DNA from: Candidatus Dormiibacterota bacterium
Lineage (GTDB): Bacteria; Chloroflexota; Dormibacteria; Dormibacterales; Dormibacteraceae
Assembly (NCBI GenBank): GCA_046727555.1
Contig: JBKPCW010000144.1
Coordinates: 1-26,741, forward strand
Length of the DNA stretch: 26,741 nucleotides
Reading direction: 5' to 3'
Below, piece after piece: positions 2,591-22,034 of this stretch. Within the stretch, counting starts at the first letter, position 1. Each line of letters starts with the position of its first letter. The notes under the pieces were generated by a model. That model made no database searches. It was not told the DNA's origin and saw nothing but the letters and a program-made list of their open reading frames with translations. A program made the position numbers and the translations under genes.

Positions 2591-2643
2591 CAGAGGATTT
2601 CTACCCAGCCGTATCCCTGCATATTCAGCGGACCTAGAGGTAC

Positions 2644-2775
2644 CCCCTCACCCCGACCCTCTCCCCTGCGGGGAGAGGGAGTCTGCTCCGGCCCCTCACC
2701 GCGACCCTCTCCCCTGCGGGCAGAGGGAGTCTGCTCCAGCCCCTCACCCCGACCCTCTCCCCTCCGGGGAGAGGG
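2644..2775. repeat. Three tandem 48-bp REP-like palindromic units
   Basis: Units start at 2644, 2692 and 2740: cccctcacc(c/g)cgaccctctcccct(g/c)cggg(g/c)agaggg, followed by agtctgctcc(g/a)g in units 1 and 2. Each carries a ccctctcccc-N3-ggggagaggg hairpin (one mismatch in unit 2). Confidence 0.9.
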
Positions 2776-2784
2776 GGAGACTTC

Positions 2785-4491
2785 TCACGACAGGCCGAGG
2801 ATGTTCCCGTCCTCGTCGATGTCGATGCTGGCCGCGATCGGCGTCGTCGGCAGGCCGGGCATGGTCCGCATCTCGCCGCAGATCGGGTAGATGAACCCCG
2901 CGCCGACCGACGCCCGAACCTCCCGCACCGGCAGCACCCACCCGGTCGGGGCGCCCTTCAGCTTCGGGTCGGACGAGATCGACAGATGGGTCTTGGCGAT
3001 GCACACGGGCAGCCGGCCGAAGCCGCTCGCCTCGTACGCGTCGATCTGCCGAGCGGCGGGCGCGTCGTACTCGACGCCGCGTGCGCCGTAGATGCGCAGC
3101 GCGATGGTCTCGATCTTCTCCCGCAGCGTCGCGGCGTCCGGGTAGAGGAGCTGGAACACGCTCGGCTCTTCAGCGGCCGCGGCCACCATCTCCGCCAGCT
3201 CGACCGCGCCCTCACCGCCGTCGGCAAAGTTGCGGCAGACGGCCGACCGGACGCCGAGGTGCTCGGCCAGCTCGCGGATCGCGCGGTGCTCTGACGGGTG
3301 GTCGCCAGGGAAGGCGTTGATCGCCACCACCGGCGTGACACCGTGGATCTGGATGTTCTCCACCTGCTTGCGGAGGTTGGCCGCACCGGCCAGCACGTCG
3401 TCGGGGTTCTCCTTCAACAGGTCCGGCGGCAGCGGCCTGCCGGCGACGACGCGGTACTTGCCGGAGTGCACCTTCAGCGCGCGCACGGTGGCGACGATCA
3501 CCGCGGCATCGGGGGCCAGGCCGGACGTCCGGCACTTGATGTTGAAGAAGCGCTCGGCGCCCATGTCCGCGCCGAAGCCGGCCTCCGTCACCAGGAAGTC
3601 GCCGCCGTGGATGCCGATCATGTCGGCGAGCACCGACGAGGCGCCGTTGGCGATGTTGCCGAACGGGCCGGCGTGGACGAGCACCGGCGTGTTCTCCAGC
3701 GTCTGCAGGAGGTTCGGCTTGATGGCGTCGCGCATGATCACCGTCATCGCCCCGCCGGCGTGGAGGAAGTCGGCGGTGATGGGCTGGCCGTCGCGCGCCA
3801 GGCCGATGACCATACGTCCCAGGCGCTTGCGCATGTCCTGAAGCGAGGTCGCGAGCGCGAGCACAGCCATCACCTCGGACGCCGCGGTGATGTCGAACCC
3901 GGTCTGACGCACGACGCCGTCCTCCGGCGCGCCAAGACCGACGACGACGTTGCGCAGCACCCGGTCGCTCACGTCGAGCACCCGCCGCCAGGTGATGCTG
4001 TGGAGGTCGATCGGGAACTCGCGCAGGCTGTGGTGGATGAAGTTGTCGATCATCGCGGCCAGCAGGTTGTGCGCCGCCGTCACCGCGTGGAAGTCACCCG
4101 TCAGGTGCAGGTTCAGGCGCTCCATCGGCACGACCTGGCTGTAGCCGCCGCCGGCGGCGCCGCCCTTGATGCCGAAGGTCGGGCCCATGGACGGTTGGCG
4201 GATGGCGACGGTCGCGCGCTTGCCGATCCTGCCGAGGGCGTCGCCGAGGCCGACGGTGGTCGTCGTCTTGCCCTCGCCGAGAGGTGTCGGCGTGATGGCG
4301 GAGACGACGACGTACCTGGCCTTGGGCCTGTCGCGCAGCTCCTCGATCGCTTCGAGCTTGATCTTGGCGACGTCGTGGCCGTAGGGCTCGAGCAGGTGCG
4401 GTCCGATGCCCATCCTGGCCGCGATTTCGGGCATGGGCACCAGGCGCGCCTTGCGCGCGATCTCAAGGTCGGTCGGGAACTCCACCTTCAT
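2785..4491 (-). CDS. fhs: Formate--tetrahydrofolate ligase
   Basis: 568 aa; TPLGEGKTTT P-loop, IKGGAAGGGYSQVVPME, LHLTGDFHAVTAAHNLL, GFDITAASEVMA, VTEAGFGADMGAERF, CIAKTHLS, MRTMPGL. Confidence 0.97.
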   Translation of the reverse strand: MKVEFPTDLEIARKARLVPMPEIAARMGIGPHLLEPYGHDVAKIKLEAIEELRDRPKARYVVVSAITPTPLGEGKTTTTVGLGDALGRIGKRATVAIRQPSMGPTFGIKGGAAGGGYSQVVPMERLNLHLTGDFHAVTAAHNLLAAMIDNFIHHSLREFPIDLHSITWRRVLDVSDRVLRNVVVGLGAPEDGVVRQTGFDITAASEVMAVLALATSLQDMRKRLGRMVIGLARDGQPITADFLHAGGAMTVIMRDAIKPNLLQTLENTPVLVHAGPFGNIANGASSVLADMIGIHGGDFLVTEAGFGADMGAERFFNIKCRTSGLAPDAAVIVATVRALKVHSGKYRVVAGRPLPPDLLKENPDDVLAGAANLRKQVENIQIHGVTPVVAINAFPGDHPSEHRAIRELAEHLGVRSAVCRNFADGGEGAVELAEMVAAAAEEPSVFQLLYPDAATLREKIETIALRIYGARGVEYDAPAARQIDAYEASGFGRLPVCIAKTHLSISSDPKLKGAPTGWVLPVREVRASVGAGFIYPICGEMRTMPGLPTTPIAASIDIDEDGNILGLS

Positions 4492-4501
4492 CGCACCACT
4501 C

Positions 4502-5350
4502 CTACGACAACTTCGCCAGCATCTCCTGGCGCCACCTTTCAGTCGGCTCGATCTCGTTGAACGTGAACACGTGCAGGCCCGCGACCCGGCGCTGGGGCGC
4601 CGCGATCCCGTCCATCAACGCGCCCAGGAAGCGCTGGGGCTCGTATCCGCCGGGCCGGAACATGCGCGCCACCCAGCTCGGGTGGCCGCGCAGGAAGCGG
4701 GCCGCGTCGGCGACTCCGATCCTGGTCGACACTCGCAGCAGGCGGACCGGGTCGGCGACGCCGGCCATGCCGATGTAGATCGGCAGCTCGACCCCGCGCC
4801 GGCGCACGCGCTCCACCCAGCGCTTCACAGTCTCGGCGTCGAAGCTCATGTTGCTGACGATGTAGGTGGCGACGCGGCGCTTGTCCCACATGGCCTGGAT
4901 GGTCACGTCGTCGTCGATGAACGGATGGCTCTCGGGATAGCCGGTGACCCCGATGTCGGCGAAGCCGTGGCCGTGCGGGAGGGCCTGGATCAGGGAGATG
5001 GAGTCCGGGAACGCGCCCGCCTCTCTCGCGTCGCCGGCGACGACGAAGATCTCTGTGATTCGCGCCGAACGCAGCCTGTCGACGATCCGGTCGAGCTCGG
5101 CGGTGTCGCGCACGAGGCGCGCGGAGAGGTGGGGCACAGCGTGGTACCCGAGCTCCGCGAGCCTCACGGCCACGTCGACCGTGGGTGCCATGCCCCGGCG
5201 GGGGGACGCCGTGACGGCGACGACCACCTCGCGCGGCACGTTGGCGGCGACGAGCTCGACCACACCGTCGGTGGGCAGCACCTCGTAGCGCGGGCTGCGG
5301 AGGAAGGCGGCGAGCGTGCCACCCTTCTCAGCCCGAAGAGGCTTCACCAC
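4502..5350 (-). CDS. metF: 5,10-methylenetetrahydrofolate reductase (short MetF-type); start probably GTG at 5350 or 5347, not 5380
   Basis: RYEVLP, VPHLSAR, VVAGD, GVTGYPESHP and GLHVFTFN motifs. SD-like gcaggt lies upstream of 5350. The ORF-track start at 5380 falls inside a predicted promoter. Confidence 0.85.
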   Translation of the reverse strand: MVKPLRAEKGGTLAAFLRSPRYEVLPTDGVVELVAANVPREVVVAVTASPRRGMAPTVDVAVRLAELGYHAVPHLSARLVRDTAELDRIVDRLRSARITEIFVVAGDAREAGAFPDSISLIQALPHGHGFADIGVTGYPESHPFIDDDVTIQAMWDKRRVATYIVSNMSFDAETVKRWVERVRRRGVELPIYIGMAGVADPVRLLRVSTRIGVADAARFLRGHPSWVARMFRPGGYEPQRFLGALMDGIAAPQRRVAGLHVFTFNEIEPTERWRQEMLAKLS

Positions 5351-5368
5351 GCCCACCTGCGGTGTCGC

Positions 5369-5397
5369 ACTATACGCCACTGTCGCGCCATGCGCAA
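5369..5397 (-). promoter_or_regulatory. Sigma70-type promoter for metF-fhs
   Basis: Minus strand reads TTGCGC (5397-5392), N17, TATAGT (5374-5369), in the 51-bp gap between the phosphoesterase stop and metF. Confidence 0.65.
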
Positions 5398-5401
5398 CAC
5401 A

Positions 5402-6868
5402 TCAGAACGGCGCCGGCAGCAGCAAGATGGCATTTCGATCGGCGGGCGTGCCTGCCCGGATCGGCTCAAAGCCGCTCAGCGGCACGTTCGCCGCGAGCTC
5501 GCGGTGCAGGCCGGCCAGTCCCCGGCCGTCGTGGTCGAGCATCGTGCACCCGAGGGCGAGCAGCCCGCCCTCGGTGGCGTAGACCTCCACCGTCCTCGCC
5601 TGGCATGGCCAGTCGATGATCGAGCCGGTCGTCACCTCCCAGAAGGTGCCGCGCGGCGTGATCCGGTTGCTGTGCGTGTGGCCGTTGAGCCACAGGATGA
5701 CGTTGCCGAAGCGCTGAAGCAGGTCGAGAAGCTCGGCCGCGTGCTGCTCGCAGCGCGGGTTGGACAGCGTGTCGTAACCGTGGTGGGAGAGCAGGACGAC
5801 GTAGCGGTCTTCGTTACGCGTCGGCAGCTTCGCCCCATCGCGGGACCGGAACGACGAGTGCACCTCCTCGAGGCGCCGCTCGAGCCAGTGCATCTGCTGT
5901 GGGGCGATCGTCCCGTCCGCCCCGCCCTCGTCGCACACCGTGTCCAGGGTGATGAACCGCAGCAGGCCGTGGTCGCGCACGTGGTAGGACTCCTCGAACA
6001 GGTCGCCGCGCTCGATCGAGCGGCGCTCCGGGTCGGGGGAGATGTCGCGATAAGGCCCGGCCAGGAATCGTTCCGGAGAGACGGCGAACGTCTCCACCGC
6101 CGTGTCGGGGTCGATGCCTTCCGGCATGTCCACCGGCTTGCGCCAACCCGTCATCGCCCTGGCCAGCGCCGGCGTGACGAGACCGACGCCCTGGCAGACC
6201 TGCTCGTGGTTGCCCCAGCAGCGAAGCCAGGGCAGGCGGAGCCCATCCGAGTGGAACTCGAGCGCCGCCTCCTCCAGCAGGCCGGGGCGACGCGGGTAGC
6301 CCAGGTCGCGCTGGAACACGTCGCCGTCCTCGGCGCCGTCCGGCTTCCAGTAGATGTCGCCCGGCCAATCCACCCTCTGCACGCCGTCGTAACCGGGCGC
6401 GCCCGAGTCGGGCCGCACCGTGCCGCCGTCCATCAGGGCGAGGAAGCCGGCGAGCTCATTGCGCTGCGTGTTGTCAACGGCGTCGCCGGTCACGGCCGCG
6501 ATTCGTGGCGCCGCGCCCGTGAGCGGACATGACTCGACGTCGTTGATCGTCCGCACCATCGCGGCGATGGCGTGCGTGCTCAGCATCTCGTGCGGCCGCT
6601 GCATCGTGATGAGCTCGCGAAAGCGCGGGTCGCGCCAGAAGCGGTTGACGAACTCGAAGCGGGCGGGCGACTGGGCGTCGATGACGTGCAGGTCGGTGAG
6701 GTGGGCGATGACCGCGATCGCCTCTCCCTTCGGGATCGCGTCCGCATCCGGCGACGCGACGAGCTCTGTGCGCACGATGTGCGGCTCGCCTGGACCTTCG
6801 ACCACGGCGCGATAGCTCTTCCGCACGATCGCGCCGGGGACAAGCGTCCTCTCCGACGTGAAGGTCAC
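5402..6868 (-). CDS. Calcineurin-like metallophosphoesterase, TIGR03767-like, without signal peptide
   Basis: All five metal-binding motifs present: DLH, GDAVD, GNHE, SHH, GHTH. YRAVVEGPGEPHIVR and DAQSPARFEF are typical of this family. GTG start 6868 overlaps the ATPase stop (GTGA); 488 aa. The 750-aa ORF-track call is an upstream in-frame extension. Confidence 0.85.
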   Translation of the reverse strand: MTFTSERTLVPGAIVRKSYRAVVEGPGEPHIVRTELVASPDADAIPKGEAIAVIAHLTDLHVIDAQSPARFEFVNRFWRDPRFRELITMQRPHEMLSTHAIAAMVRTINDVESCPLTGAAPRIAAVTGDAVDNTQRNELAGFLALMDGGTVRPDSGAPGYDGVQRVDWPGDIYWKPDGAEDGDVFQRDLGYPRRPGLLEEAALEFHSDGLRLPWLRCWGNHEQVCQGVGLVTPALARAMTGWRKPVDMPEGIDPDTAVETFAVSPERFLAGPYRDISPDPERRSIERGDLFEESYHVRDHGLLRFITLDTVCDEGGADGTIAPQQMHWLERRLEEVHSSFRSRDGAKLPTRNEDRYVVLLSHHGYDTLSNPRCEQHAAELLDLLQRFGNVILWLNGHTHSNRITPRGTFWEVTTGSIIDWPCQARTVEVYATEGGLLALGCTMLDHDGRGLAGLHRELAANVPLSGFEPIRAGTPADRNAILLLPAPF

Positions 6869-7944
6869 GCGCCGACCGAGGCTGCTTCTTCCCTCTGCAC
6901 GAGGACAGGGTCGGGGCGGAGGACGAGCCGGACCTTGGAGCCGGCCGGGTGCTCCGAGGCGGCCGCGGTCGGGAGCTGGGCGAGGACCGTGGTGTCGCCG
7001 AGGTCGACGGTGACGCGGCTCACGGCGCCAAGGAACGCGACGGCGATCACTGTGCCGACCAGCGGGCCGCCCGACCCGTCGGCGTTGCCGGCGATGCTCA
7101 CCGCCTCCGGCCTGACCAGCGCGATCGCCGGCCCGTCCGGCACGTCGGGGTGGACCAGCGGGATCGTGGTACCGCGGATCTCGACCGAGCCGCCGCGCAC
7201 TGTGCCCGCCATGCGGTTGGTCAGACCGACGAAGTCGGCGACGAAAGGAGTCGCCGGGCGCGAATAGACCAGCGTCGGCGGACCGAGCTGCTCGAGCTTG
7301 CCCGCCTGCATGACGCCGACGCGGTCGGCGATGGCGAGCGCCTCCTCCTGGTCGTGCGTCACGAAGAGCGTCGTGATGCCGACCTCGAGCTGGACGCGGC
7401 GGATCTCGTCGCGCAGACGCGCGCGCACCTTGGCGTCGAGCGCGGACAGCGGCTCGTCGAGAAGCAGCACCTGCGGCTGGATGGCCAGGGCGCGGGCCAG
7501 GGCCACGCGCTGCTGCTGGCCGCCGGACATCTGGTTGGCGTAGCGGTTGGCGAACCGGCCGAGGCCGACCAGCTCGAGCATCGCGAGCGCCCGCTTCTTG
7601 CGCTCGGCGGTGCCCACGCCGCGCATCTGCAGACCGAACGCGACGTTCTCCCACGCGACCATGTGCGGGAAGAGCGAGTAGGCCTGGAAAACCATGCCGA
7701 TGTTCCGCTTGTTGGTCGGGAGGTCGGTCACGTCCTGCCCGGCGATGACCACCCGGCCCTCATCCGCCTGCTCGAGACCGGCGAGGAGGCGCAGCGCAGT
7801 CGTCTTGCCGCAGCCCGACGGGCCGAGGAGCGCGACCAGCTCGCCCGGCGCGAGCGTCAGCGACAGCCCGTCGAGCGCGGTGACCGTGCCGTAGCGGCGG
7901 ACCAGGCTCTCGAGCCGGACCTCGACGCCGGACCTTTCGCTCAT
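6865..7944 (-). CDS. ABC transporter ATP-binding subunit (PotA/AfuC-like, C-terminal TOBE)
   Basis: GPSGCGKTT, MSGGQQQR, LLLDEP and VTHDQEEA motifs; ATG 7944 overlaps the permease stop (ATGA); 359 aa. Confidence 0.95.
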   Translation of the reverse strand: MSERSGVEVRLESLVRRYGTVTALDGLSLTLAPGELVALLGPSGCGKTTALRLLAGLEQADEGRVVIAGQDVTDLPTNKRNIGMVFQAYSLFPHMVAWENVAFGLQMRGVGTAERKKRALAMLELVGLGRFANRYANQMSGGQQQRVALARALAIQPQVLLLDEPLSALDAKVRARLRDEIRRVQLEVGITTLFVTHDQEEALAIADRVGVMQAGKLEQLGPPTLVYSRPATPFVADFVGLTNRMAGTVRGGSVEIRGTTIPLVHPDVPDGPAIALVRPEAVSIAGNADGSGGPLVGTVIAVAFLGAVSRVTVDLGDTTVLAQLPTAAASEHPAGSKVRLVLRPDPVLVQREEAASVGA

Positions 7945-8810
7945 GTGACGTTGATGCTCTGGCTGGCGAGCATGGTTGCGGGCTCCTCCCGGTAGGTGCG
8001 GCGCGACCGGCCGCCGACGAAGGCGAGGATCACGAGCAGGACGAAGGCGAAGAGCAGGGAAGCGACCGCGACCGCGATCGACACGCCCGCGTTGGTCCTC
8101 CCGAGGTGGACCAGCTCGACCTGCAGGTTGTTGTAGAGGAGGTTGTTGGCGATCGTGTACTCGCCCAGCACGAGCGCCACCGAAAGGAGCGTCGCGTTGA
8201 GGATGGCGTTCGAGATGTTGGGCGTGATCACGCGCCACATCACCGCGAACCAGCTGGCGCCGAGGCTGCGCGCCGCTTCGGAGAGCGTCTTGACGTCGAT
8301 CGCGCCAAGTCCGGCGTCCAGGGCCCGGTAGGCATAAGGAAGGACGAGGACGATGTAGGCCAGGGCGAGCGTCATGATCGAGTCGCTGAGGTTGGTCCCG
8401 AGCCAGATGTACATGGGGAACAGGCCCACGACCAGGACGATCGCGGGGATGGTCAGCGGCAGCAGGCTGATGAACTCCACGACCCTGTTCAAGCCGGGCA
8501 GCTTGAGGCGGACCCAGACCATGGTGGGGACGAGGAGCACCAGCATCGCGATCGAGGTGATCACCGCGAGCTCGAGCGAGGCGATGATCCCCGTCGGGTT
8601 GTCGACGGGAAGCCCGACCATCTCCTTGTAGTCGAAGATCGACTTCCAGTACTCGAGCGTGCGCGACCCGTCGTTGGCGCGGGTCGAGAACTCGACCATC
8701 GCCCCGAGCGGGACCAGGAAGTAGACGGCGGCGACGGCGAAGACGACGTAGCGAAAGAGCTGGAGCCGGAGCCAGCGCCTGCGGTGCACGCCGCGCCGGG
8801 CTAGAGCCAT
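7941..8810 (-). CDS. ABC transporter permease (PotC-like)
   Basis: Hydrophobic helices, EAA loop (LSEAARSLGASW); ATG 8810 overlaps the end of the upstream permease; 289 aa. Confidence 0.92.
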   Translation of the reverse strand: MALARRGVHRRRWLRLQLFRYVVFAVAAVYFLVPLGAMVEFSTRANDGSRTLEYWKSIFDYKEMVGLPVDNPTGIIASLELAVITSIAMLVLLVPTMVWVRLKLPGLNRVVEFISLLPLTIPAIVLVVGLFPMYIWLGTNLSDSIMTLALAYIVLVLPYAYRALDAGLGAIDVKTLSEAARSLGASWFAVMWRVITPNISNAILNATLLSVALVLGEYTIANNLLYNNLQVELVHLGRTNAGVSIAVAVASLLFAFVLLVILAFVGGRSRRTYREEPATMLASQSINVT

Positions 8811-9703
8811 CGGGCGGTCCTCCGCTGCAGCAGCGAGTACAGGATCGTGACCACGGTCACGATCACGACCATCTCGATCGCGATCGCCTTGGCGAACCCG
8901 GGCTCCACGGCGCCGACCTCGCTGCTGAGGCCGTTGCTGATCTGCTGCGCCAGCACCGGCGCGCCCTGGTTGATGAGCGCGTTGGCGGTGGCGTAGGCGG
9001 AGAAGGCGTTGGCGAACAGCAGCAGCAACCCGCCGAGGAAGGCGGGAAACAGGAGTGGCCCGGCGACGTGTCGCCAGTAGTGCCAGGTGCTGCCGCCCAG
9101 GCTCTCCGTCGCCTCGCGCCACTGCGGCTTGACCCCGTCGAGCGCGGGCAGGAAGACCAGGACCATCAGCGGGATCTGGAAGTAGAGGTAGACCACGATC
9201 AGGCCGGGGGTGTCGAACAGCCACAGGCTCTTGCCGTAGTAGTCGAATCCGTGCGCCTGGAAAAAGAGATAGACGAAGCCCGCGGGTCCGATGCTGGCGA
9301 TGAACGCAAACGCGAGCGTCACGCCGCCGAACTGGGCGAGGACGCCCGACGCCGACACGAGCATCCGCCGGAGCAGGCCACCCGGATTGCCGGTCGCGAT
9401 TGCGTACGCGAGGAGCGCGCCGAGCACGGCGCCGAAAACCGCCGTCACGGCGGAGACGACGGTCGTCGTGACCGTCGCGGAGACGACGTACGACCGGGAC
9501 AGGTGGGCGAAGTTGTCGAGGGTGAACGAGTTGTTGGCGTCGAAGAAGGCGCCGAGGGCGATGATCGCCGTCGGGAGGGCGAGGAACAGGCCGACGTAGA
9601 CGAAAAACGGCAAGGCCCCGACCCAGTCGAGGGAGAACCGCCGGCCGCCCAACAGTGGGCGGCCGACGTTCGTCGTTACAGCCGGAGTCCCGGCGGTCGT
9701 CAA
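8801..9703 (-). CDS. ABC transporter permease (PotB-like)
   Basis: Hydrophobic helices, EAA loop (WREATESLGGS); TTG 9703 overlaps the SBP stop (TTGA); 300 aa. Confidence 0.9.
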   Translation of the reverse strand: MTTAGTPAVTTNVGRPLLGGRRFSLDWVGALPFFVYVGLFLALPTAIIALGAFFDANNSFTLDNFAHLSRSYVVSATVTTTVVSAVTAVFGAVLGALLAYAIATGNPGGLLRRMLVSASGVLAQFGGVTLAFAFIASIGPAGFVYLFFQAHGFDYYGKSLWLFDTPGLIVVYLYFQIPLMVLVFLPALDGVKPQWREATESLGGSTWHYWRHVAGPLLFPAFLGGLLLLFANAFSAYATANALINQGAPVLAQQISNGLSSEVGAVEPGFAKAIAIEMVVIVTVVTILYSLLQRRTARWL

Positions 9704-10827
9704 GAAATGGCCTTGAGCCAGTTGGCGACGAGGTAGTTCTTCGCCGCGGTGGCCTGCGCGTCGCTCATGAACTGCGGCGTGCCGTTGACCGGAGGCAGAG
9801 CCGAGGCGGCCGACGCGTCGACGGTCCCGGCCTTGGTCATGGCCGCCTGCCGGACCGGCCGCGCCAGTCCCTGGAGCCAGATGTTCTGGCCGTCGTCGGA
9901 GTAGAGGAACTCCTCCCACAGCCGCGCGGCGGCGGGGTGCGGAGCGTTCTTGTTGATCGCCTGGGCGTAATAGCCGCCGAGGACGGCGTTGCCCGGCACG
10001 AAGACCTTCCACGAGGGCACGTCCTTGCCGTGCGCCGCGGAGAGGTAGTCCCAGTCGAAGACCACCGGCGTCGTCCCGTTCTTCACGGTCGCCGTGGTGG
10101 CCTGCGTCTTGGAGAAGTTGCCGGCGACCTTCAGGCGGTGGAAGAAGTCCACGCCCTGCTTGATGTCGTCGAGCGAGCCGCCTTCCGCGAGGTTGGCCAT
10201 CATCACGCCGTTCAGCGCCGCGTTGGCCTTGGTCGGGTCGCCGTTGAGCGCGACCTTGCCCTTGAACTCAGGCTTGAACAGGTCGTCGATCGAGGTGATC
10301 GTCGGCACCTTGCTCGAGTCGTAGCCGATCGACATGAAGCCGCCGTAGTCCTGGACCCACACCCCGGTCGGCTCCTTCTGGCTGTCGAGGATGTCGGTCC
10401 ACGTCGTGACCTTGTAGGGGGCGAACAGGTTCGTGTTCGCCAGGGCCACCGCCATGCCGACGTCGAGGACGTCCGGCGCGCGGCTCGTCGTGCCCAGCTG
10501 GTTGACAGCGTTCACCTCGTCCTGGCTCGAGCCGTCGGGGTTGTCGGAGGTGATCTGGATGCCGTACTTCGCGGCGAAGGTGTCCAGCTCCTTGCCGTAG
10601 TTCGCCCAGTCGCGAGGCAGCGCGATGACGTTGAGCTTGCCCTCGGCCTTGGCCGCTGCCACCAGCGCCGACATGCCGCCGCAGTCGGCGGCCGCCTTGG
10701 CGGTCTTGGCGGTCGACTCGCTGCAGGCGGTCGTCCCTCCTCCACCTCCGGAGCTGCCGCAGGCAGCAACCACGAACAGGGCCACCACGGCCAGGCCGAG
10801 GCGGCGCGTCAGACTACCCAATCTCAT
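9700..10827 (-). CDS. ABC substrate-binding lipoprotein (PotD/AfuA-like, 'putative spermidine/putrescine' class)
   Basis: ATG 10827 with purine-rich SD (ggaggggaagacgaaagg); signal peptide and lipobox VAAC; EGKLNVIALPRDWANY, APDVLDVG and NKNAPHPAAARLWEEFLYS; 375 aa. Confidence 0.9.
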   Translation of the reverse strand: MRLGSLTRRLGLAVVALFVVAACGSSGGGGGTTACSESTAKTAKAAADCGGMSALVAAAKAEGKLNVIALPRDWANYGKELDTFAAKYGIQITSDNPDGSSQDEVNAVNQLGTTSRAPDVLDVGMAVALANTNLFAPYKVTTWTDILDSQKEPTGVWVQDYGGFMSIGYDSSKVPTITSIDDLFKPEFKGKVALNGDPTKANAALNGVMMANLAEGGSLDDIKQGVDFFHRLKVAGNFSKTQATTATVKNGTTPVVFDWDYLSAAHGKDVPSWKVFVPGNAVLGGYYAQAINKNAPHPAAARLWEEFLYSDDGQNIWLQGLARPVRQAAMTKAGTVDASAASALPPVNGTPQFMSDAQATAAKNYLVANWLKAIS

Positions 10828-10973: not shown

Positions 10974-11762
10974 TCACGTTTCAGCTCGCTTGCCGCGGTA
11001 GCCCAGCCTCCGGGAGAGGTCCGCCGCCCCCTCGGCCGTCAGACGCTCGAGCTTCGCGGCCGTGCGGACCCGGTGCGAGGGCCCGGAGACGTCGAGGGCG
11101 GCGACGACGTCGCCCGCCGGGCCGAAGACCGGGGCGGCGATCGCATCCAGCCCGACCTCCAGCTCCTCGTGGGTCCGGGCCAGCCCGGAGGCGCGCACCT
11201 CCTCGAGCTGGGCCGCCAGCCTGGTCCGGTCGGTGATCGTCTGCGGGGTCACGCGGTCGAGCGGGAGGCCGAGCAGGCGCTCCCGGACGGCGTCCGAGGC
11301 GAAGGCGAGGATCGCCTTGCCCGAGGCCGTGCAGTGCAACGGGTAGCGGCCCCCGAGCCAGTTGACGCTGACCACGGAGGTCGAGGCGATGGCCTGCTCG
11401 ATCGGGACGATCACGTCGCCCAGGAGGACGTCGAGGGTCGCGGTCTCGCCGGCCGCGGTGGCCAGGCGCTCGCACACCGGCCTGGCCACGAAGCGCAGGT
11501 CGAACTCGCCGGTGACGACGCTCGCCAGCTGGGGCAGGCGGCGACCAAGCCGGTAGCGGGCGGTGCGGGGGTCGCGCTCGACCAGGCCGTGCCGCTCCAG
11601 CGTGCCCAGCAGCCGGAGGGCGGTCGAGCGGTGGACGCGCAGCTCGCGGGCGACCTCGGCGCCGGTGCGCCCGCCGGCGGCGGCGAGCAGGTCCAGGATG
11701 GAGATCGCGCGGTCGACCGAGCGAACGGCGGCGGCGCCTTCGTCGCCGACGTCGTTGCTCAT
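10974..11762 (-). CDS. IclR family transcriptional regulator
   Basis: N-terminal HTH (VRSVDRAISILDLL...RSTALRLLGTL...YRLG) and effector domain (LHCTASGKAIL, EELEVGLDAIAAPVF); 262 aa. Confidence 0.95.
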   Translation of the reverse strand: MSNDVGDEGAAAVRSVDRAISILDLLAAAGGRTGAEVARELRVHRSTALRLLGTLERHGLVERDPRTARYRLGRRLPQLASVVTGEFDLRFVARPVCERLATAAGETATLDVLLGDVIVPIEQAIASTSVVSVNWLGGRYPLHCTASGKAILAFASDAVRERLLGLPLDRVTPQTITDRTRLAAQLEEVRASGLARTHEELEVGLDAIAAPVFGPAGDVVAALDVSGPSHRVRTAAKLERLTAEGAADLSRRLGYRGKRAET

Positions 11763-11770
11763 GACGCAAC

Positions 11771-11802
11771 ATTATCCATTCCGCGCAACGGCAGGATAGG
11801 AT
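11771..11802. promoter_or_regulatory. Divergent, probably leaderless promoters for iclR and the corrinoid operon
   Basis: Plus strand TAGGAT (11797-11802), N6, GTG start 11809. Minus strand GATAAT (11776-11771), N8, ATG 11762. The gap is only 46 bp. Confidence 0.55.
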
Positions 11803-11808
11803 GGAACG

Positions 11809-12522
<714 letters not shown>

Positions 12523-12528
12523 CGTCTG

Positions 12529-13392
12529 ATGGAGACCGTTCTCTCCTCGCGGGCTCGCGAGGTCGTCATCTCCGGCGAGCGTCCCTTCGTCATCATCGGC
12601 GAACGCATCAACCCGACCGGACGGAAGGTGCTCGCCGCGGAGATGAAGGACGGCGTGATGGACCGCGTGCGCTCGGACGCGGTGGCGCAGACCCAGGCCG
12701 GCGCCCACGTGCTCGACGTCAACGCCGGCATCCCGGCCATTGACGAGCCGGCGCTCCTGGTCGCCGCGATCAGGGCGGTGATGGAGGTCAGCGACCTGCC
12801 GATCTGCATCGACTCGTCGATCATCGAGGCGCTCGAGGCGGGGCTATCCGCCTACGAAGGCAAGGCGCTGGTCAACTCCGTCACGGCGGAGGAGGAGCGC
12901 ATGGAGCGCATCCTGCCCCTGGTCAAGAAGCACGGGGCGGCGGTGATCGGCATGGCCAACGACGAGACCGGGATCACGATGGTGCCGACGGAACGCCTCG
13001 AACTGGCCCGACGGATCGTCGAGCGGGCGATGGACCACGGCATCCCGAAAGAGGACGTGATCATCGACCCCATCGCGATGACCGTGGCGGCAGACCCGAC
13101 CTGCGGCCTGGTGACCCTCGAGACCATGCGCCTGATCCGCGACGAGCTCGGCAACAACATGACCTGCGGCGCCTCCAACGTGTCGTTCGGGCTCCCCGAC
13201 CGCCCGGCGGTCAACGCCGCTTTCCTGCCCCTGGCGATGAACGCCGGGCTGACCTGCGCGATCACGAACCCGCTCGAGGCCCAGGTGCGGCGCGCCATCC
13301 TCGCCGGCGACCTGCTGCTGGGTCACGACGAGTACGCGATGCGCTGGATCGCCAGCTTTCGCCAGGAGCAGGCGAAGGCGGCGGCGAAATGA
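12529..13392 (+). CDS. Methyltetrahydrofolate:corrinoid methyltransferase (pterin-binding TIM barrel, AcsE/MtgA-like)
   Basis: IIGERINPTG, LDVNAG, ICIDSS, LVNSV, IIDP, GASNVSFGLP and AITNP motifs; 287 aa. Confidence 0.92.
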   Translation: METVLSSRAREVVISGERPFVIIGERINPTGRKVLAAEMKDGVMDRVRSDAVAQTQAGAHVLDVNAGIPAIDEPALLVAAIRAVMEVSDLPICIDSSIIEALEAGLSAYEGKALVNSVTAEEERMERILPLVKKHGAAVIGMANDETGITMVPTERLELARRIVERAMDHGIPKEDVIIDPIAMTVAADPTCGLVTLETMRLIRDELGNNMTCGASNVSFGLPDRPAVNAAFLPLAMNAGLTCAITNPLEAQVRRAILAGDLLLGHDEYAMRWIASFRQEQAKAAAK

Positions 13393-15215
13393 TCGCGCGC
13401 AAGCTCGAGGTCAACTATCTGCCGTTCGACCGGACGACCCGGGTCCCGGCCGGCACCACCGTCTTCAGCGCCGCGCACTGGATCGGCCTGCCCATCGACT
13501 CGACCTGCGGCGGCCGTGGCACCTGCGGCAAATGCAAGGTGCGCATCGTCCGCGGGTTGACGGAGGCCGAAACCGCCGATCACCGGCAGCTGCGGCCGCA
13601 GGAGATCGCCGACGGGTGGCGGCTTTCCTGCCAGGCGCGGATCTACGAGGACATGACGTGCGAGGTCCCGCAGCTGCTGCGCGTGCCCAAGGCGGCGACC
13701 ATGGGCCTCGGACGACTCGTCATCCTCGACCCCAACGTCCGCAAGGTGTACCTCGAGCTCGAGGAGCCATCGCTCCACGACCAGCGAAGCGACATCGCTC
13801 GCCTGCGCGACGCGCTGACCAAAGAGGGGCACGACTTGGTCGCCGGCGTGGCCGTGCTGCGCGCGCTGCCGCAGGTCTTTCGCGACGCGGGATTCAAGGT
13901 CACCGCGGTGCTCGCCGGCGACCACCTGGTCGCGGTCGAGCGCGGCGACACGACCGGTGACTGCTACGGGGTCGCCTTCGACGTCGGCACGACGACGCTC
14001 GTCGGCACGCTCATGAACCTCCGCACCGGCATGGCGGCGTCGGTGCTGTCGACGCTCAACGGCCAGGCGCCTTTCGGCGCCGACGTCATCTCGCGCATCA
14101 GCCACGGCATGAACGGACCCGAGGCGATCGACGAGCTCCAGCAGGCCGTGGTGACCACGATGAACTCGATCCTGGACGAGCTGTACCGCGAGACGGGCGT
14201 CACGCCGGCGCAGACCTACGAGGCGGTCGTCGTCGGCAACGTCACCATGCTGCACCTCTTGCTCGGCGTCGACCCGAGCCCGCTCTCGATGTCACCGTTC
14301 ACGCCGGCGTTCATGGACGAGCTGAGCGTCGAGGCGCGGGACGTCGGTCTGCGGATACATCCCCACGGCTACGTGCAGACGCTGCCCGCGCTCGGCGCCT
14401 ACGTCGGCGCGGACATCGTCGCGGGCGTGCTCGCCACCAACGTCGTGCGCGAGGACAGGGTGCGCGTCTTCGTCGACGTCGGGACGAACGGCGAGATCGT
14501 GCTCGGCAGCGCGCAGCGCGCGCTGGCCACCGCCGCGCCGGCGGGCCCCGCGTTCGAAGGCAGCCAGATCAAGTGTGGGATGCGCGCCACCGCCGGCGCG
14601 ATCGAGGGCGTCACGCTGGGCGACCGCGTCGACCTGCAGATCATCGGCGGCGACGTCGCCGCGGAGGGTATCTGCGGCTCGGGCCTGGTCGATGCCGTGG
14701 CGCAGCTGCTGCTCGCCGGCCTGCTCGACCATTCGGGCCGCCTGCGGACTGCAGCCGACGTCCCGGACCATCCGCTGCGGGAGCGGCTGATCGAGGTCGA
14801 CGGCGTGCGCGCGTTCCTGCTCGCCGACGGCGTGTACCTGTCGCAGCGGGACATCCGGGAGCTGCAGTTCGCCAAGGGCTCGATCGCGACCGGGATCAAG
14901 GTCCTGATGGACATCCTCGGCGTCCGCGCAGAAGACCTCCATGAGATCCTGCTCGCCGGCTCGTTCGGGTCCTACCTGAACCCGGAGAGCGCGAAGATCA
15001 TCGGCCTCGTGCCGCCGGTCGACGTCGACCGGATCATCGCGGTCGGCAACTCCGCCGGGGAGGGCGCGAAGATCGCCCTGCTCTCCTACCGGGAGCGGCA
15101 GGTCGCCTTCGAGCTGCCGTCGCGCATCGAGTACGTCGAGCTGTCGGGAAGGTCGGACTTCAACGACTCGTTCATCTCGGTGCTCGGCTTTCCAGTGCTG
15201 GAGCGCGTCTCGTGA
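13389..15215 (+). CDS. ATP-dependent corrinoid reductive activator (RACo/RamA, ASKHA/DUF4445 with N-terminal 2Fe-2S)
   Basis: CGGRGTCGKC...RLSCQ ferredoxin; AFDVGTTT, DVGTNGEI, AGPAFEG, GICGSG, LAGSFG and GNSAG ASKHA motifs; ATGA overlap with the upstream gene; 608 aa. Confidence 0.95.
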   Translation: MIARKLEVNYLPFDRTTRVPAGTTVFSAAHWIGLPIDSTCGGRGTCGKCKVRIVRGLTEAETADHRQLRPQEIADGWRLSCQARIYEDMTCEVPQLLRVPKAATMGLGRLVILDPNVRKVYLELEEPSLHDQRSDIARLRDALTKEGHDLVAGVAVLRALPQVFRDAGFKVTAVLAGDHLVAVERGDTTGDCYGVAFDVGTTTLVGTLMNLRTGMAASVLSTLNGQAPFGADVISRISHGMNGPEAIDELQQAVVTTMNSILDELYRETGVTPAQTYEAVVVGNVTMLHLLLGVDPSPLSMSPFTPAFMDELSVEARDVGLRIHPHGYVQTLPALGAYVGADIVAGVLATNVVREDRVRVFVDVGTNGEIVLGSAQRALATAAPAGPAFEGSQIKCGMRATAGAIEGVTLGDRVDLQIIGGDVAAEGICGSGLVDAVAQLLLAGLLDHSGRLRTAADVPDHPLRERLIEVDGVRAFLLADGVYLSQRDIRELQFAKGSIATGIKVLMDILGVRAEDLHEILLAGSFGSYLNPESAKIIGLVPPVDVDRIIAVGNSAGEGAKIALLSYRERQVAFELPSRIEYVELSGRSDFNDSFISVLGFPVLERVS

Positions 15216-15799
15216 GCGGCACCGCGCTCGTCATCTGCGGCGCTCTCGGGCGCGAGGTGAAGCAGATCGTCGACAGGCGCGGCTGGGACGTCGACGTCTA
15301 TGGCGTCTCCGCCCTGCTGCATCTCTACCCGTCGCGGATCGTCGACGAGCTGCGGAAGAGGCTGCACGACCTGCGCCCGCGCTACGACAACCTGGTCGTG
15401 GTCTACGGCGACTGCGGCACCACCGGCCGCCTGGAACCGATCCTCGAGGAGTTCGGCGCGGCGCGCCTCCGCGGCCCGCACTGCTACGAGATGTTCGCCG
15501 GCGAGGAGCGCTTCGCCAGGATCGCCGAGGAGCGGCCGGCGACGTTCTTCCTCACCGACTGGCTCGTCCGCAACTTCGAGCGTGCCGTCATCAGGGGCCT
15601 GGGCCTCGACCGCCACCCCGACCTCAAGCCGATGCTGTTCGCCAACTACGAGTCGATCCTCTATCTGCGCCAGGCGCCGAACCCTCGCCTGGCGGAGAAG
15701 GCGCAAGAGATCGCCGCCTACCTGGGATTGGCGCTGGAGATCGAGGACGTCGGCCTCGGGGAACTCGAAGAGCGGCTCGCCGCGTTAGTGGAATCGTGA
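15212..15799 (+). CDS. DUF1638 domain protein (corrinoid reactivation accessory)
   Basis: ICGAL, VYGDCGT, GPHCYEMFAG and FFLTDWL motifs; GTGA overlap with the RACo gene. Confidence 0.88.
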   Translation: MSGTALVICGALGREVKQIVDRRGWDVDVYGVSALLHLYPSRIVDELRKRLHDLRPRYDNLVVVYGDCGTTGRLEPILEEFGAARLRGPHCYEMFAGEERFARIAEERPATFFLTDWLVRNFERAVIRGLGLDRHPDLKPMLFANYESILYLRQAPNPRLAEKAQEIAAYLGLALEIEDVGLGELEERLAALVES

Positions 15800-15800
15800 T

Positions 15801-16079
15801 TTGGCGAAATACCAGGTGATGTTCTGGAAGCACATCCCCTCCCAGGTGAAGGCGTGGGAGGGCGACGTCCAGTCGAAGCGCATGCTGCCCGACTACTTCC
15901 AGGCCGCGATCGACGCCTACGCCATGAAGGACGGCTCGACCGACATGGACGCTTACCTTGCCGGCTGGCAGTGGGGACAGGTCGAGGAGCGGGACGGCTC
16001 CCCGGAGGAGGTCGTGGCGGCGCTGGTCGAGGAGCTGACCGCGGCCAATCCCCGCGCCACTTTGCTGAACCCGACATGA
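15801..16079 (+). CDS. Small 'virulence factor' domain protein (PF13769-like), typical of corrinoid methyltransferase clusters
   Basis: YQVMFWKHIPSQVKA...FQAAIDAYAM...DAYLAGW matches the family pattern as I recall it; TTG start 1 nt after the DUF1638 stop; 92 aa. Confidence 0.8.
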   Translation: MAKYQVMFWKHIPSQVKAWEGDVQSKRMLPDYFQAAIDAYAMKDGSTDMDAYLAGWQWGQVEERDGSPEEVVAALVEELTAANPRATLLNPT

Positions 16080-16525: not shown

Positions 16526-17048
16526 CCTCGCGCACCAGGCGCTGGGCTTCGGCCCGGCGCCCGTCCTGCAGTCCCGACGTGAGGTTGACCTGGACGAGCA
16601 AGGCGGCGACGGTCACGGCGGAGTGGGCGATGATGGCCGCGGCGACCGCGTCCGCGCGCAGGTTCTGGTTGCCGTGCGTCTCCAGCTCATGGGCGAGCTC
16701 GACGACGGCGGCGGCGGTGCGCGCGATGGCGAGGGGCACATCGATCGTCCGGTCCCGCGCCGCTTCGATGTCTTTGCCGGAGCGGACCGCGGCCAGGAAC
16801 TCGTTGAATGCGACCGCGTCCTGCTCGATCAGGTCCTCGGCGAGCAGGCGCGCCTCCTCAGCCTGCTTGTGTGCGGCCGCGGCTCCAGCCCACGATTCGG
16901 AGCGGACCGCGACCTTCTGCAGCAGCGCGGCCGAAGCGGCCAGCGTGGCGGCGGCGGCCGAGCCGCTCGCCGGTGCCGGGGCGCCGGACGCGATCTGGCT
17001 CAGCAGGTAGCCAAACCGGGCGCGGGCCCTGGCCTCAGGACTCCCCAA
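16302..17048 (-). CDS. Cyclodeaminase/cyclohydrolase family protein (FTCD_C / FchA-like) with a 3' extension running antisense into dinB
   Basis: LASGAPAPASGSAAA-type N-terminal motif, DAVAF, IDVPL, GNQNLRADA and VQVNL match FTCD_C. TTG 17048 has SD aagggag and overlaps the mttB end. The recognisable domain ends near 16500. Confidence 0.8.
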   Translation of the reverse strand: MGSPEARARARFGYLLSQIASGAPAPASGSAAAATLAASAALLQKVAVRSESWAGAAAAHKQAEEARLLAEDLIEQDAVAFNEFLAAVRSGKDIEAARDRTIDVPLAIARTAAAVVELAHELETHGNQNLRADAVAAAIIAHSAVTVAALLVQVNLTSGLQDGRRAEAQRLVREVSASVRRQASLSLVGDRGRASERSPDSDRPSRPRTGHGVPSEPSADPRPASSRSRSASGGSRSTRRARPRGGSR

Positions 17049-21626: not shown

Positions 21627-22034
21627 CTACTTCGTGACGGTCACCTGGAGCGAGTAGACGGCGACAAACATCGGGCACGCCGCACCCGGCGGACACTTCG
21701 GCGAAGCGGTCGACGTGACGTCGACCGTCCCCGGCTTCAGGCCCACGAACGCCGCCAGCGTGACGCCGATGGCGGCGGTGGCGGCGGGATCGACTGCCGG
21801 CGCGAGCACGCTGCGATCGCTGGAGGCGGGGTGCGTCCAGTTGTTCATGCCGTTGGGCGCGTGCAGCGCCACCTCGAGCCTCTGCCCCACGTGAAGGGTC
21901 GCCGTGTGGTCCTGCTCGGTGACGGTGACCTGCTCCGAGGGAGTCGGTGACGGATTGGAGCCGGCGCCGGTGCCCGTCGCGCCGCAGGCGCACACAAGCA
22001 GGGCGATCGCAGCCACAAACAGACGATTCTTCAT
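21627..22034 (-). CDS. Small lipoprotein with a probable Ig-like/chagasin-like beta-sandwich domain
   Basis: MKNR plus hydrophobic signal and VCAC lipobox; Pro/Ser/Thr linker; TATLHVGQRLEVAL...W...AAFVGLKPGTVDV...YSLQVTV beta pattern; CPPGAAC pair. Confidence 0.7.
   Translation of the reverse strand: MKNRLFVAAIALLVCACGATGTGAGSNPSPTPSEQVTVTEQDHTATLHVGQRLEVALHAPNGMNNWTHPASSDRSVLAPAVDPAATAAIGVTLAAFVGLKPGTVDVTSTASPKCPPGAACPMFVAVYSLQVTVTK

What the first reader, a model, noticed from the sequence alone, without database searches (positions are those of the whole stretch)
5402..10827. ABC importer translationally coupled to a cytoplasmic TIGR03767-type phosphoesterase: possible phosphocholine/phosphoester supply line
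Seen: five genes chained by TTGA, 10-bp, ATGA and GTGA overlaps, with the phosphoesterase last and metF-fhs immediately downstream. Established: PotD/AfuA-class binding proteins include binders of polyamines, phosphonates and sugar phosphates, and this is not the ProX/OpuA class normally used for betaine. Inference: a phosphorylated methylamine (for example phosphocholine or glycerophosphocholine) or another phosphoester is imported, hydrolysed inside and fed to the MttB system.
Basis: inference. Interest (0 to 1): 0.65.

Follow-up and report, generated by a model that had tools for sequence, protein, structure and literature searches.

The report
Phosphoester importer inside a choline-demethylation island
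A five-gene unit (ABC importer plus a cytoplasmic metal-dependent phosphoesterase) is real, conserved across phyla, and in this soil Dormibacteria lineage is built into a vitamin-B12 choline/phosphocholine demethylation island, so it probably brings in a choline phosphate ester, though its substrate is unproven.

Summary
SBP, two permeases, ATPase and a signal-less metallophosphoesterase (PE) are chained by TTGA, 10-bp, ATGA and GTGA overlaps. metF follows after 21 bp and fhs after 10 bp.

ABC+PE is a self-contained module. The ATPase gene directly precedes PE in 71 of 74 testable loci, and the pairing persists at 39% PE identity.

- **With C1 genes:** 58 of 80 loci, all in one Dormibacteria family.
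- **Without C1 genes:** 21 loci, including Actinomycetota, where the module has its own LacI regulator and sometimes PbfD-like/PhnX-like phosphonate genes.
- **Not needed by MttB:** a sister family has MttB in 40/43 genomes and PE in 0/43.

New support for a phosphocholine link:
- This MttB clade travels with a catabolic choline kinase. They are adjacent in the sister family, and the kinase is also present in this genome.
- This mirrors the published MthB/MthK phosphocholine demethylase of Eubacterium limosum.

A choline-phosphate-ester supply line is the best guess (about 0.45). Hydrolysis to choline before MttB is unlikely, because these enzymes need an acidic quaternary amine.

Earlier scan notes report MttB beside other metallophosphoesterases in other genomes; I did not check them.

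The parts
9700..10827 (-). Lipoprotein substrate-binding protein (375 aa), SBP_bac_6 / PhnS-AfuA-FbpA branch
   Evidence: Pfam SBP_bac_6 65.9 bits. Its only NCBIfam hit is PhnS, at 33 bits against a cut-off of 310. The model has pLDDT 83.7. The best fold matches are 5t1p (C. jejuni SBP, ligand unknown), then 4r6y PhnS. It is 62-72% identical to the SBPs of the Actinomycetota modules.
8801..9703 (-). ABC permease 1 (300 aa)
   Evidence: BPD_transp_1. TTGA overlap with the SBP stop.
7941..8810 (-). ABC permease 2 (289 aa)
   Evidence: BPD_transp_1. The best NCBIfam hit is PhnV, below its cut-off. 10-bp overlap with permease 1.
6865..7944 (-). ABC ATPase with TOBE domain (359 aa)
   Evidence: ABC_tran 134 bits plus TOBE_2. 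The best NCBIfam hit is PhnT2, 378 bits against a cut-off of 457.7. ATGA overlap.
5402..6868 (-). Signal-less binuclear metallophosphoesterase (488 aa), sub-threshold relative of TIGR03767
   Evidence: Metallophos 30.7 bits; TIGR03767 280.8 bits against 330.75. D59-x-H61, G128-D129, G219-N220-H221-E222, H362/H363 and G396-H397-x-H399 are invariant in 20 homologues. No signal peptide. Fold matches are weak: Rv0805, GpdQ, SMPDL3A/acid sphingomyelinase. GTGA overlap with the ATPase gene.
4502..5380 (-). MetF-like methylene-THF reductase, 21 bp downstream of PE
   Evidence: MTHFR domain. The position after PE is conserved in Dormibacteria loci.
2785..4491 (-). Formate-tetrahydrofolate ligase (Fhs), last gene of the unit
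   Evidence: FTHFS 810 bits. It is followed by three palindromic repeat units at about 2640-2784.
10974..11762 (-). IclR-family regulator heading the same strand, 146 bp upstream of the SBP gene
   Evidence: HTH_IclR + IclR_C. Its start lies 46 bp from the start of the divergent corrinoid-protein gene. It is kept in this position in Dormibacteria loci.
11809..16079 (+). Divergent operon: corrinoid protein, methyl-THF:corrinoid methyltransferase, RACo/RamA-type activase, DUF1638, small 'Virulence_fact' protein
   Evidence: This is the same gene set as the MtgC/MtgD/RamA/DUF1638 system of Ruegeria pomeroyi (PMC12478193).
17035..18495 (-). Non-pyrrolysine MttB-superfamily methyltransferase (486 aa)
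   Evidence: MTTB 650 bits. It scores 473 bits to D. hafniense MtgB (2qne/9yce). Y97, R312 and H348 are kept; F356 is Ala.

Best explanation
The five genes form a self-contained 'take up and hydrolyse' module.

- A lipoprotein binding protein of the PhnS/AfuA branch captures a small phosphate- or phosphonate-bearing organic molecule outside the cell.
- Two permeases and a TOBE-type ATPase import it.
- A cytoplasmic two-metal phosphoesterase, translated from the same message, cleaves a P-O ester bond.

The layout copies ugpBAEC-ugpQ, but with unrelated binding-protein and hydrolase families.

In this Dormibacteria family the module sits between the IclR regulator and metF-fhs. These belong to an island that also encodes the MttB/corrinoid/methyl-THF system, DMGDH-like oxidases with ETF and, elsewhere in the island, a choline kinase and an APC permease.

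By analogy with MthB/MthK of Eubacterium limosum, the island's methyl donor is most likely phosphocholine. The module is therefore most likely a second entry route for a choline phosphate ester (phosphocholine or glycerophosphocholine).

PE would do one of two things:
- free phosphocholine from the diester, or
- remove phosphate from the demethylated product (dimethylaminoethanol phosphate or phosphoethanolamine).

**Shown:** gene structure, families, conserved synteny, distribution.
**Inferred:** ligand, bond cleaved, link to MttB.
For: **The module is a unit**
- Overlapping genes.
- The ATPase gene directly precedes PE in 71 of 74 testable loci.
- The pairing persists at 39% PE identity with other regulators.

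**The ligand is phospho-organic**
- The nearest characterised relatives of the SBP, ATPase and permeases are the PhnS/PhnT2/PhnV aminoethylphosphonate importer, all below cut-off.
- The second-best fold match of the SBP is PhnS, 4r6y.
- The fold neighbours include binders of phosphorylated ligands: G6P (VcA0625, AfuA) and the periplasmic binding protein P5PA (that P5PA binds pyridoxal phosphate is from recall).

**PE is an active cytoplasmic enzyme**
- All metallophosphoesterase motifs are invariant.
- There is no signal peptide.
- The nearest folds are diesterases: Rv0805, GpdQ, sphingomyelinase-like.

**Link to the island**
- 58 of 80 loci keep IclR-ABC-PE-metF-fhs.
- L048 keeps PE between IclR and metF with no ABC genes.
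- In family f1, 40 genomes have both PE and MttB, 2 have PE only, 4 have MttB only and 27 have neither.
- All 11 Actinomycetota genomes tested that carry the module have one MttB cluster. Only 5 of 149 sampled genomes of that order do.

**Phosphocholine**
- MttB sits next to a Fe-ADH, choline kinase, DMGDH-like enzymes and an APC permease in sister family f3.
- A choline kinase lies on contig C68 of this genome.
- The kinase orthologue is present in 44 of 44 MttB-positive f1 genomes.
- MthB uses phosphocholine only (PMC12155760).
- The MttB here keeps the Arg/His that bind the acidic group but lacks F356 of the glycine-betaine motif (PMC13080624).
Against: - No ligand or activity is known for any member of this SBP or PE clade. 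Every family hit is below the equivalog cut-off.
- The MttB pathway does not need the module: family f3 has MttB in 40/43 genomes and PE in 0/43.
- The module exists without MttB: family f2 has PE in 7/51 and MttB in 0/51, and MttB was not found in the L060, L081 and L042 genomes.
- In Actinomycetota the module is far from the MttB cluster, has its own LacI regulator, and in 6 loci lies beside PhnX-like and PbfD-like phosphonate genes.
- Co-occurrence within f1 is largely explained by physical linkage in one island. The Actinomycetota genomes are related to each other, so 11/11 overstates independence.
- The island already has an APC permease plus kinase route.
- MttB is about as close to the glycine-betaine enzyme MtgB (473 bits) as to anything else. 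DMGDH-like enzymes fit a glycine-betaine pathway equally well.
- No shared operator motif was found.
Confidence: 0.45

Rival explanations
1. This is a general organophosphate (for example glycerophosphodiester) scavenging module used mainly to obtain phosphate, like Ugp. Its place inside the C1 island would be an inherited accident of insertion, with no metabolic hand-over to MttB.
For: - The module occurs with three different regulators (IclR, LacI, GntR) and in genomes with no MttB.
- The sister family runs MttB without it.
- SBP identity of 62-72% between Dormibacteria and Actinomycetota suggests the same ligand in both settings.
- PE's fold neighbours include the glycerophosphodiesterase GpdQ.
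- The closest solved SBP is from C. jejuni. I suspect from recall that it is Cj0727, and papers list Cj0727-Cj0755 under 'phosphate regulated genes'. The identity of 5t1p with Cj0727 is not verified.
Against: - The module sits inside one transcription unit with metF-fhs under IclR and has stayed there while PE diverged to about 50% identity.
- L048 keeps PE in the island without the ABC genes.
- All 11 Actinomycetota genomes tested that carry the module have the otherwise rare MttB cluster.
- No pst/pho genes are nearby.
Confidence: 0.25
2. This is an aminophosphonate route. The importer takes 2-aminoethylphosphonate or its N-methylated forms, or their esters from phosphonolipid head groups, and PE cleaves the P-O ester. 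In Dormibacteria the MttB system would demethylate N,N,N-trimethyl-AEP, the phosphonate analogue of phosphocholine.
For: - The best family and fold neighbours of SBP, ATPase and permeases are PhnS, PhnT2 and PhnV/PhnU.
- In Actinomycetota, TIGR03364 (the PbfD family, 287 bits, above its cut-off) and TIGR03351 (PhnX-like, 216 against 218.9) lie next to LacI-ABC-PE in 5-6 loci.
- PbfD oxidises N-methyl-AEP. No FAD enzyme handles trimethyl-AEP (PMC10590968).
- From recall, GpdQ-type enzymes can hydrolyse phosphonate monoesters.
Against: - No PhnX-like or PbfD hit above cut-off in this genome, which is 74% complete.
- Those neighbours occur in one or two related actinobacterial lineages only.
- All transporter hits are far below equivalog cut-offs.
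- The choline kinase in the island points to phosphate esters rather than phosphonates.
Confidence: 0.12
3. This is an ordinary PotD/FbpA/ThiB-type importer for a polyamine, iron or thiamine, with PE as an unrelated passenger gene.
For: - SBP_bac_6 and the PotA/FbpC-like ATPase scores.
- Many invariant aromatic and acidic residues in the SBP (W74, W143, W157, W259-D260-Y261, W273, E305, E306) would suit an ammonium group.
Against: - PE is translationally coupled and is conserved with the importer across phyla and down to 39% identity.
- No equivalog cut-off for PotD, FbpA or ThiB is approached.
- Iron and polyamine binders rank below PhnS in the fold search.
Confidence: 0.05

Closest known systems
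E. coli ugpBAEC-ugpQ (glycerophosphodiester uptake with cytoplasmic phosphodiesterase)
   Same: The same logic and gene order: binding protein, two permeases, a TOBE-type ATPase, then a cytoplasmic phosphodiesterase as the last gene.
   Different: The binding protein is of the SBP_bac_6/PhnS branch, not UgpB. The hydrolase is a binuclear metallophosphoesterase, not a GDPD-fold enzyme. The regulator here is IclR, within a C1 island, rather than Pho control. This comparison rests on recall of the ugp operon.
MthB-MthC-MthA-MthK phosphocholine:THF methyltransferase system of Eubacterium limosum (PMC12155760)
   Same: An MttB-family enzyme, corrinoid protein, methyl-THF methyltransferase and activase together with a catabolic choline kinase. 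The product, dimethylaminoethanol phosphate, has to lose its phosphate.
   Different: - The organisms here are soil Dormibacteria, presumed aerobic from recall (not tested here).
- The kinase is adjacent to MttB only in the sister family.
- Here there is an ABC importer plus phosphoesterase instead of, or in addition to, an EamA/APC carrier.
- Orthology of this MttB to MthB could not be tested.
MtgBCD/MetF2/RamA/DUF1638 glycine betaine demethylation of Ruegeria pomeroyi (PMC12478193) and MtgB of D. hafniense (2QNE, 9YCE; PMC13080624)
   Same: The same set of corrinoid, pterin-methyltransferase, RamA/RACo, DUF1638 and MetF genes. The MttB here scores 473 bits to MtgB and keeps Y97, R312 and H348.
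   Different: F356 of the four-residue glycine-betaine motif is Ala here and Gly in Actinomycetota, with an invariant Trp four residues earlier. No importer-phosphoesterase module is described for those systems.
PhnSTUV 2-aminoethylphosphonate ABC importer (Salmonella; PhnS structure 4R6Y)
   Same: It is the nearest transporter of known substrate for all four importer parts.
   Different: All scores are far below the equivalog cut-offs: SBP 33 against 310, ATPase 378 against 457.7. PhnSTUV has no coupled phosphoesterase.
GpdQ (Enterobacter aerogenes) and Rv0805, class III metallophosphodiesterases
   Same: The same catalytic fold and motif set. They are the best structural matches to PE.
   Different: The matches are weak (TM 0.32-0.35 by the model, 12-13% identity). 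PE is about 200 residues longer, with an N-terminal beta domain and long inserts.
TIGR03767 family (secreted Tat-signal metallophosphoesterases of Cutibacterium/Streptomyces; PMC9723661)
   Same: The closest sequence family, at 280.8 bits.
   Different: PE is below the 330.75 cut-off. It has no Tat signal and is cytoplasmic. It is always paired with an ABC importer rather than acting outside the cell.

Membership tests
Calcineurin-like metallophosphoesterase superfamily (PF00149) | Pfam score above the gathering threshold | tested here: met
   30.7 bits against 21.5.
Calcineurin-like metallophosphoesterase superfamily (PF00149) | Metal-binding motifs DxH, GD, GNH(D/E), H, GH, GHxH | tested here: met
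   D59/H61, G128-D129, G219-N220-H221-E222, H362-H363 and G396-H397-x-H399 are all invariant in 20 homologues.
TIGR03767 metallophosphoesterase family | Score at or above the curated cut-off (330.75 bits) | tested here: not met
   280.8 bits, matched in two stretches.
TIGR03767 metallophosphoesterase family | N-terminal twin-arginine (Tat) signal typical of members (family description, from recall) | tested here: not met
   PE starts directly at the conserved core. The upstream frame belongs to the ATPase gene. Tat-type N-termini are seen in the longer relatives.
PhnS (2-aminoethylphosphonate-binding protein, NF011620) | Equivalog cut-off of 310 bits | tested here: not met
   33.1 bits. The fold match to 4r6y has E 1e-15 and TM 0.61/0.71.
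Binding-protein-dependent ABC importer | A lipoprotein or secreted SBP, two BPD_transp_1 permeases and an ABC ATPase in one operon | tested here: met
   The lipobox VAAC is at residues 20-23.
PotD / FbpA / ThiB importers | Equivalog scores for the SBP or for PotA/FbpC | tested here: not met
   The SBP has no such hit. The ATPase scores 328 against 355.6 for potA and 324 against 496 for the ferric ATPase.
Ugp glycerophosphodiester system | A UgpB-type SBP and a GDPD-fold UgpQ | tested here: not met
   The SBP is SBP_bac_6 and the hydrolase is Metallophos. The system is analogous in layout only.
MtgB (glycine betaine:corrinoid methyltransferase) | Four-residue glycine-betaine motif Y97, R312, H348, F356 (PMC13080624) | tested here: inconclusive
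   Three of four residues are kept. F356 is Ala, with a Trp at the position of I352.
MthB/MthK phosphocholine demethylation system | A choline kinase gene co-located or co-occurring with the MttB-family gene | tested here: met
   - In family f3 the kinase is adjacent to MttB, one gene between (coordinates).
- In this genome it is on contig C68 (PF01633, 92 bits).
- 44 of 44 MttB-positive f1 genomes have the orthologue.
MthB/MthK phosphocholine demethylation system | Orthology of the MttB-family protein to MthB, and activity with phosphocholine | not testable with these tools
   The MthB sequence could not be fetched, and no assay is possible.

The most novel reading that the evidence does not exclude
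Soil Dormibacteria (presumed aerobic) break down choline entirely at the phosphate-ester level, the reverse of the plant phosphoethanolamine N-methyltransferase route.

1. Phosphocholine is imported by this ABC system, or made by the island's choline kinase.
2. The MttB system demethylates it.
3. The two DMGDH-like oxidases demethylate further, down to phosphoethanolamine.
4. The coupled metallophosphoesterase is the final phosphoethanolamine (or dimethylaminoethanol-phosphate) phosphatase.

The same importer-esterase pair would serve phosphoethanolamine or aminoethylphosphonate esters in Actinomycetota.
Probability: 0.12. Interest if true: 0.8.

Novelty: new variant of a known kind. Interest (0 to 1): 0.55.

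Why it matters
Dormibacteria are abundant, uncultured soil bacteria whose carbon sources are poorly known.

If the module imports choline phosphate esters, the recently discovered phosphocholine-demethylating branch of the MttB superfamily would no longer be known only from a gut anaerobe. It would also operate in soil bacteria that are presumed to be aerobic. That would point to membrane-lipid head groups (phosphocholine, glycerophosphocholine) as a combined C1, nitrogen and phosphorus source in soil.

It would also give a first function to two groups with no characterised member:
- a widespread cytoplasmic branch of the TIGR03767-like metallophosphoesterases
- their PhnS-like binding proteins

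If the module turns out to be a plain phosphate-scavenging unit, the finding is ordinary.

Tried and rejected
- **Choline to betaine by BetA/CodA.** No GMC oxidoreductase was found in this genome (74% complete) or in 3 of 5 larger relatives. I dropped it as the link. The Fe-ADH route was not excluded; a Fe-ADH sits beside MttB in family f3.
- **ABC-PE as a replacement for the APC permease.** Rejected. The APC permease is present in 42 of 73 f1 genomes, largely the island-bearing ones.
- **Choline kinase (PF01633) presence as a discriminator in Actinomycetota.** Uninformative. Hits occur in 5/5 module-bearing genomes and in 4/5 of the sampled MttB-positive genomes without PE.
- **Shared IclR operator** upstream of the SBP, corrinoid and mttB genes. 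No common 8-9-mer or palindrome was found.
- **Sigma-70 promoter and terminator scan.** Nothing useful.
- **Expression.** No RNA holder was listed for the stretch.
- **Direct PDB sequence hits for PE.** None.
- **Identity of 5t1p as Cj0727.** Could not be verified.
- **Context of remote PE representatives.** Three of six look-ups gave contigs too short or without DNA.
- **Pocket-level comparison of the SBP with PhnS/PotD.** Not possible, because model and PDB coordinates cannot be read in the script box.
- **One tool call failed** and was repeated with a protein id.
- **No complex prediction was run.**

Full report
**1. What is in the sequence**

The window is 70% G+C. It is contig C144 of a 1.86-Mb, 74%-complete metagenome-assembled genome. 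Its nearest relatives are Dormibacteria, labelled Dormibacterota or 'Chloroflexi CF_' in public records.

GC3 periodicity and ORF calls give five minus-strand genes:
- SBP 9700-10827
- permease 1 8801-9703
- permease 2 7941-8810
- ATPase 6865-7944
- phosphoesterase PE 5402-6868

Reading the junctions confirms the TTGA, 10-bp (ATGGCTCTAG), ATGA and GTGA overlaps. metF starts 21 bp after PE and fhs 10 bp after metF. Directly below fhs lie three roughly 48-bp palindromic repeat units (about 2640-2784), which probably close the transcription unit. An IclR gene (10974-11762) heads the same strand. Its start is 46 bp from a divergent operon for a corrinoid protein, a methyl-THF:corrinoid methyltransferase, a RACo/RamA-type activase, DUF1638 and a small protein. 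A non-pyrrolysine MttB gene lies at 17035-18495.

**2. The parts**

*Binding protein.* The SBP has a lipoprotein signal and is SBP_bac_6. Its only NCBIfam hit is PhnS, the 2-aminoethylphosphonate binder, at 33 bits against a cut-off of 310. The ATPase and permeases also score best to PhnT2, PhnV and PhnU, all below cut-off. An AlphaFold model (pLDDT 83.7) matches best an uncharacterised Campylobacter jejuni SBP (5t1p). Next comes Salmonella PhnS (4r6y), then iron, metal-citrate, glucose-6-phosphate and P5PA binders.

*Phosphoesterase.* PE carries every binuclear metallophosphoesterase motif, invariant in 20 homologues. It scores 280.8 bits to TIGR03767, under the 330.75 cut-off. It has no signal peptide in any lineage examined. 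Longer relatives of 600-1000 aa do carry Tat-type N-termini. The PE model is moderate (pLDDT 71.6). It matches only weakly the diesterases Rv0805, GpdQ and the sphingomyelinase-like enzymes. There is no PDB hit by sequence.

**3. The module is a unit**

Among 80 genome loci with a PE homologue, the ATPase gene directly precedes PE in 71 of the 74 that can be judged. The three exceptions are:
- L048: IclR-PE-metF, with no ABC genes
- L042: SBP-PE only
- L036: PE alone

At 39% PE identity the pairing with an SBP_bac_6 importer still holds, under a GntR regulator. Two other remote homologues stand alone near EamA carriers. The layout parallels ugpBAEC-ugpQ, with unrelated protein families.

**4. 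Relation to C1 genes**

*Loci.* 58 of 80 loci keep metF/fhs and/or the corrinoid genes beside PE, and 21 do not:
- 15 Actinomycetota
- 4 Dormibacteria of another family
- 1 Eisenbacteria
- 1 mislabelled contig

*Sample of the class.* In a sample of 200 genomes of the class:

| Family | PE and MttB |
|---|---|
| f1 (own family) | 40 both, 2 PE only, 4 MttB only, 27 neither |
| f3 | MttB 40/43, PE 0/43 |
| f2 | PE 7/51, MttB 0/51 |

These tallies include five genomes flagged unpublished (G427, G448, G449, G472, G496). Leaving them out does not change the pattern. So the MttB system does not need the module, and the module can live without MttB. Within f1 they are gained and lost together as one island.

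*Actinomycetota.* The module has its own LacI regulator in 13 of 15 loci. In 5-6 loci it lies next to a TIGR03364 FAD oxidoreductase and a TIGR03351 PhnX-like hydrolase. TIGR03364 is the family of PbfD, which oxidises N-methyl-AEP (PMC10590968). All 11 such genomes tested have one MttB cluster elsewhere, arranged IclR-corrinoid-MeTr-RACo-DUF1638-MetF. Only 5 of 149 sampled genomes of that order have MttB, and none of those five has PE. These genomes are related to each other, so the association is suggestive and not proof.

**5. What the island does**

In relatives the island continues with a DAO-FAO_M-GCV_T enzyme (dimethylglycine/sarcosine-dehydrogenase type), EtfB, EtfA and the HdrD-like Fe-S protein whose 3' part opens this window.

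In sister family f3, an MttB that is 76% identical to this one sits in a single operon with:
- a Fe-ADH
- a choline/ethanolamine kinase
- two DMGDH-like enzymes
- an APC permease
- a small metallophosphoesterase-like protein

This genome has the same kinase on contig C68, beside a DMGDH-like gene (PF01633, 92 bits). The kinase orthologue is present in all 44 MttB-positive f1 genomes, and in only one f1 genome without MttB. The APC permease is present in 42 of 73 f1 genomes.

This mirrors the MthB/MthC/MthA/MthK system of Eubacterium limosum. There the MttB-family enzyme accepts phosphocholine but not choline, and yields dimethylaminoethanol phosphate (PMC12155760).

The MttB here scores 473 bits to the glycine-betaine enzyme MtgB. 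It keeps Y97, R312 and H348, but has Ala at F356. The Actinomycetota homologues have Gly there, with an invariant Trp four residues earlier. R312 is kept by all characterised family members, whose substrates are all acidic quaternary amines (PMC13080624). No GMC-type choline oxidase was found in this genome or in 3 of 5 relatives. One OpuAC-type binding protein lies elsewhere in the genome.

**6. Reading**

The best-supported model is that the module is an uptake-and-hydrolysis unit for a phospho-organic compound, recruited in family f1 into a choline/phosphocholine-to-methyl-THF island. Its most likely cargo there is phosphocholine or glycerophosphocholine.

PE more plausibly does one of two things:
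- makes phosphocholine from a diester, or
- strips phosphate from a demethylated product.

Three rivals remain open. All turn on binding and enzyme assays that cannot be done here.
- a plain phosphate-scavenging unit
- an aminophosphonate route
- a classical PotD/FbpA-type importer

**7. Earlier scan notes**

Earlier notes report MttB genes next to other kinds of metallophosphoesterase, and an APC-permease/phosphoesterase unit in a choline island, in other genomes. I saw the APC-phosphoesterase pair myself in f3 and f1. The other notes were not checked.

Noticed in passing
window 2640-2784: Three tandem roughly 48-bp copies of a G+C-rich palindromic unit (core CCCTCTCCCC-TGCG-GGGGAGAGGG) lie between fhs and the glyoxalase-family gene. 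They look like a REP-type or terminator array.
   Followed up: partly
own genome contig C68 (L107:3-4067): A DMGDH-like gene, a choline/ethanolamine kinase (PF01633, 92 bits), a GntR/FCD regulator and a small metallophosphoesterase-like gene lie in a row. The contig is cut at both ends. In relatives this block belongs to the same island as the window.
   Followed up: yes
L103:16949-19528 and L104:896-8184 (genome G373, sister family): One operon holds DMGDH-like, MttB, Fe-ADH, choline kinase, DMGDH-like, APC permease and a small Metallophos_2-like protein, next to GntR. This is a candidate aerobic counterpart of the MthB/MthK phosphocholine pathway.
   Followed up: partly
L071:2727-11632; also L064, L065, L075, L076, L079: In Actinomycetota a PbfD-family FAD oxidoreductase (TIGR03364, above cut-off) and a PhnX-like hydrolase (TIGR03351, just under cut-off) lie beside the LacI-ABC-PE module. 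This hints at phosphonate-ester use.
   Followed up: partly
window 17035-18495 (MttB residues 353-361): The whole Dormibacteria/Actinomycetota MttB clade has HAAGWLE(S/G)(A/G). The F356 position of the D. hafniense glycine-betaine motif is Ala or Gly, and a Trp is invariant four residues earlier.
   Followed up: partly
window 11763-11808: Only 46 bp separate the divergent starts of the IclR gene and the corrinoid-protein gene, so their promoters and any operator must overlap.
   Followed up: no
window 22097-23557 (+) and 21627-22034 (-): ORFs of 486 aa and 135 aa with coding-type GC3 but no Pfam or NCBIfam match.
   Followed up: no
L048:8468-11614: In one Dormibacteraceae genome PE follows IclR directly and precedes metF, with the four ABC genes missing from the island.
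   Followed up: partly
L113:1170-10566: In a remote relative (PE 39% identical) a GH95 fucosidase gene with F5/8 type C domains is inserted between the ABC ATPase gene and PE, under a GntR regulator.
   Followed up: no
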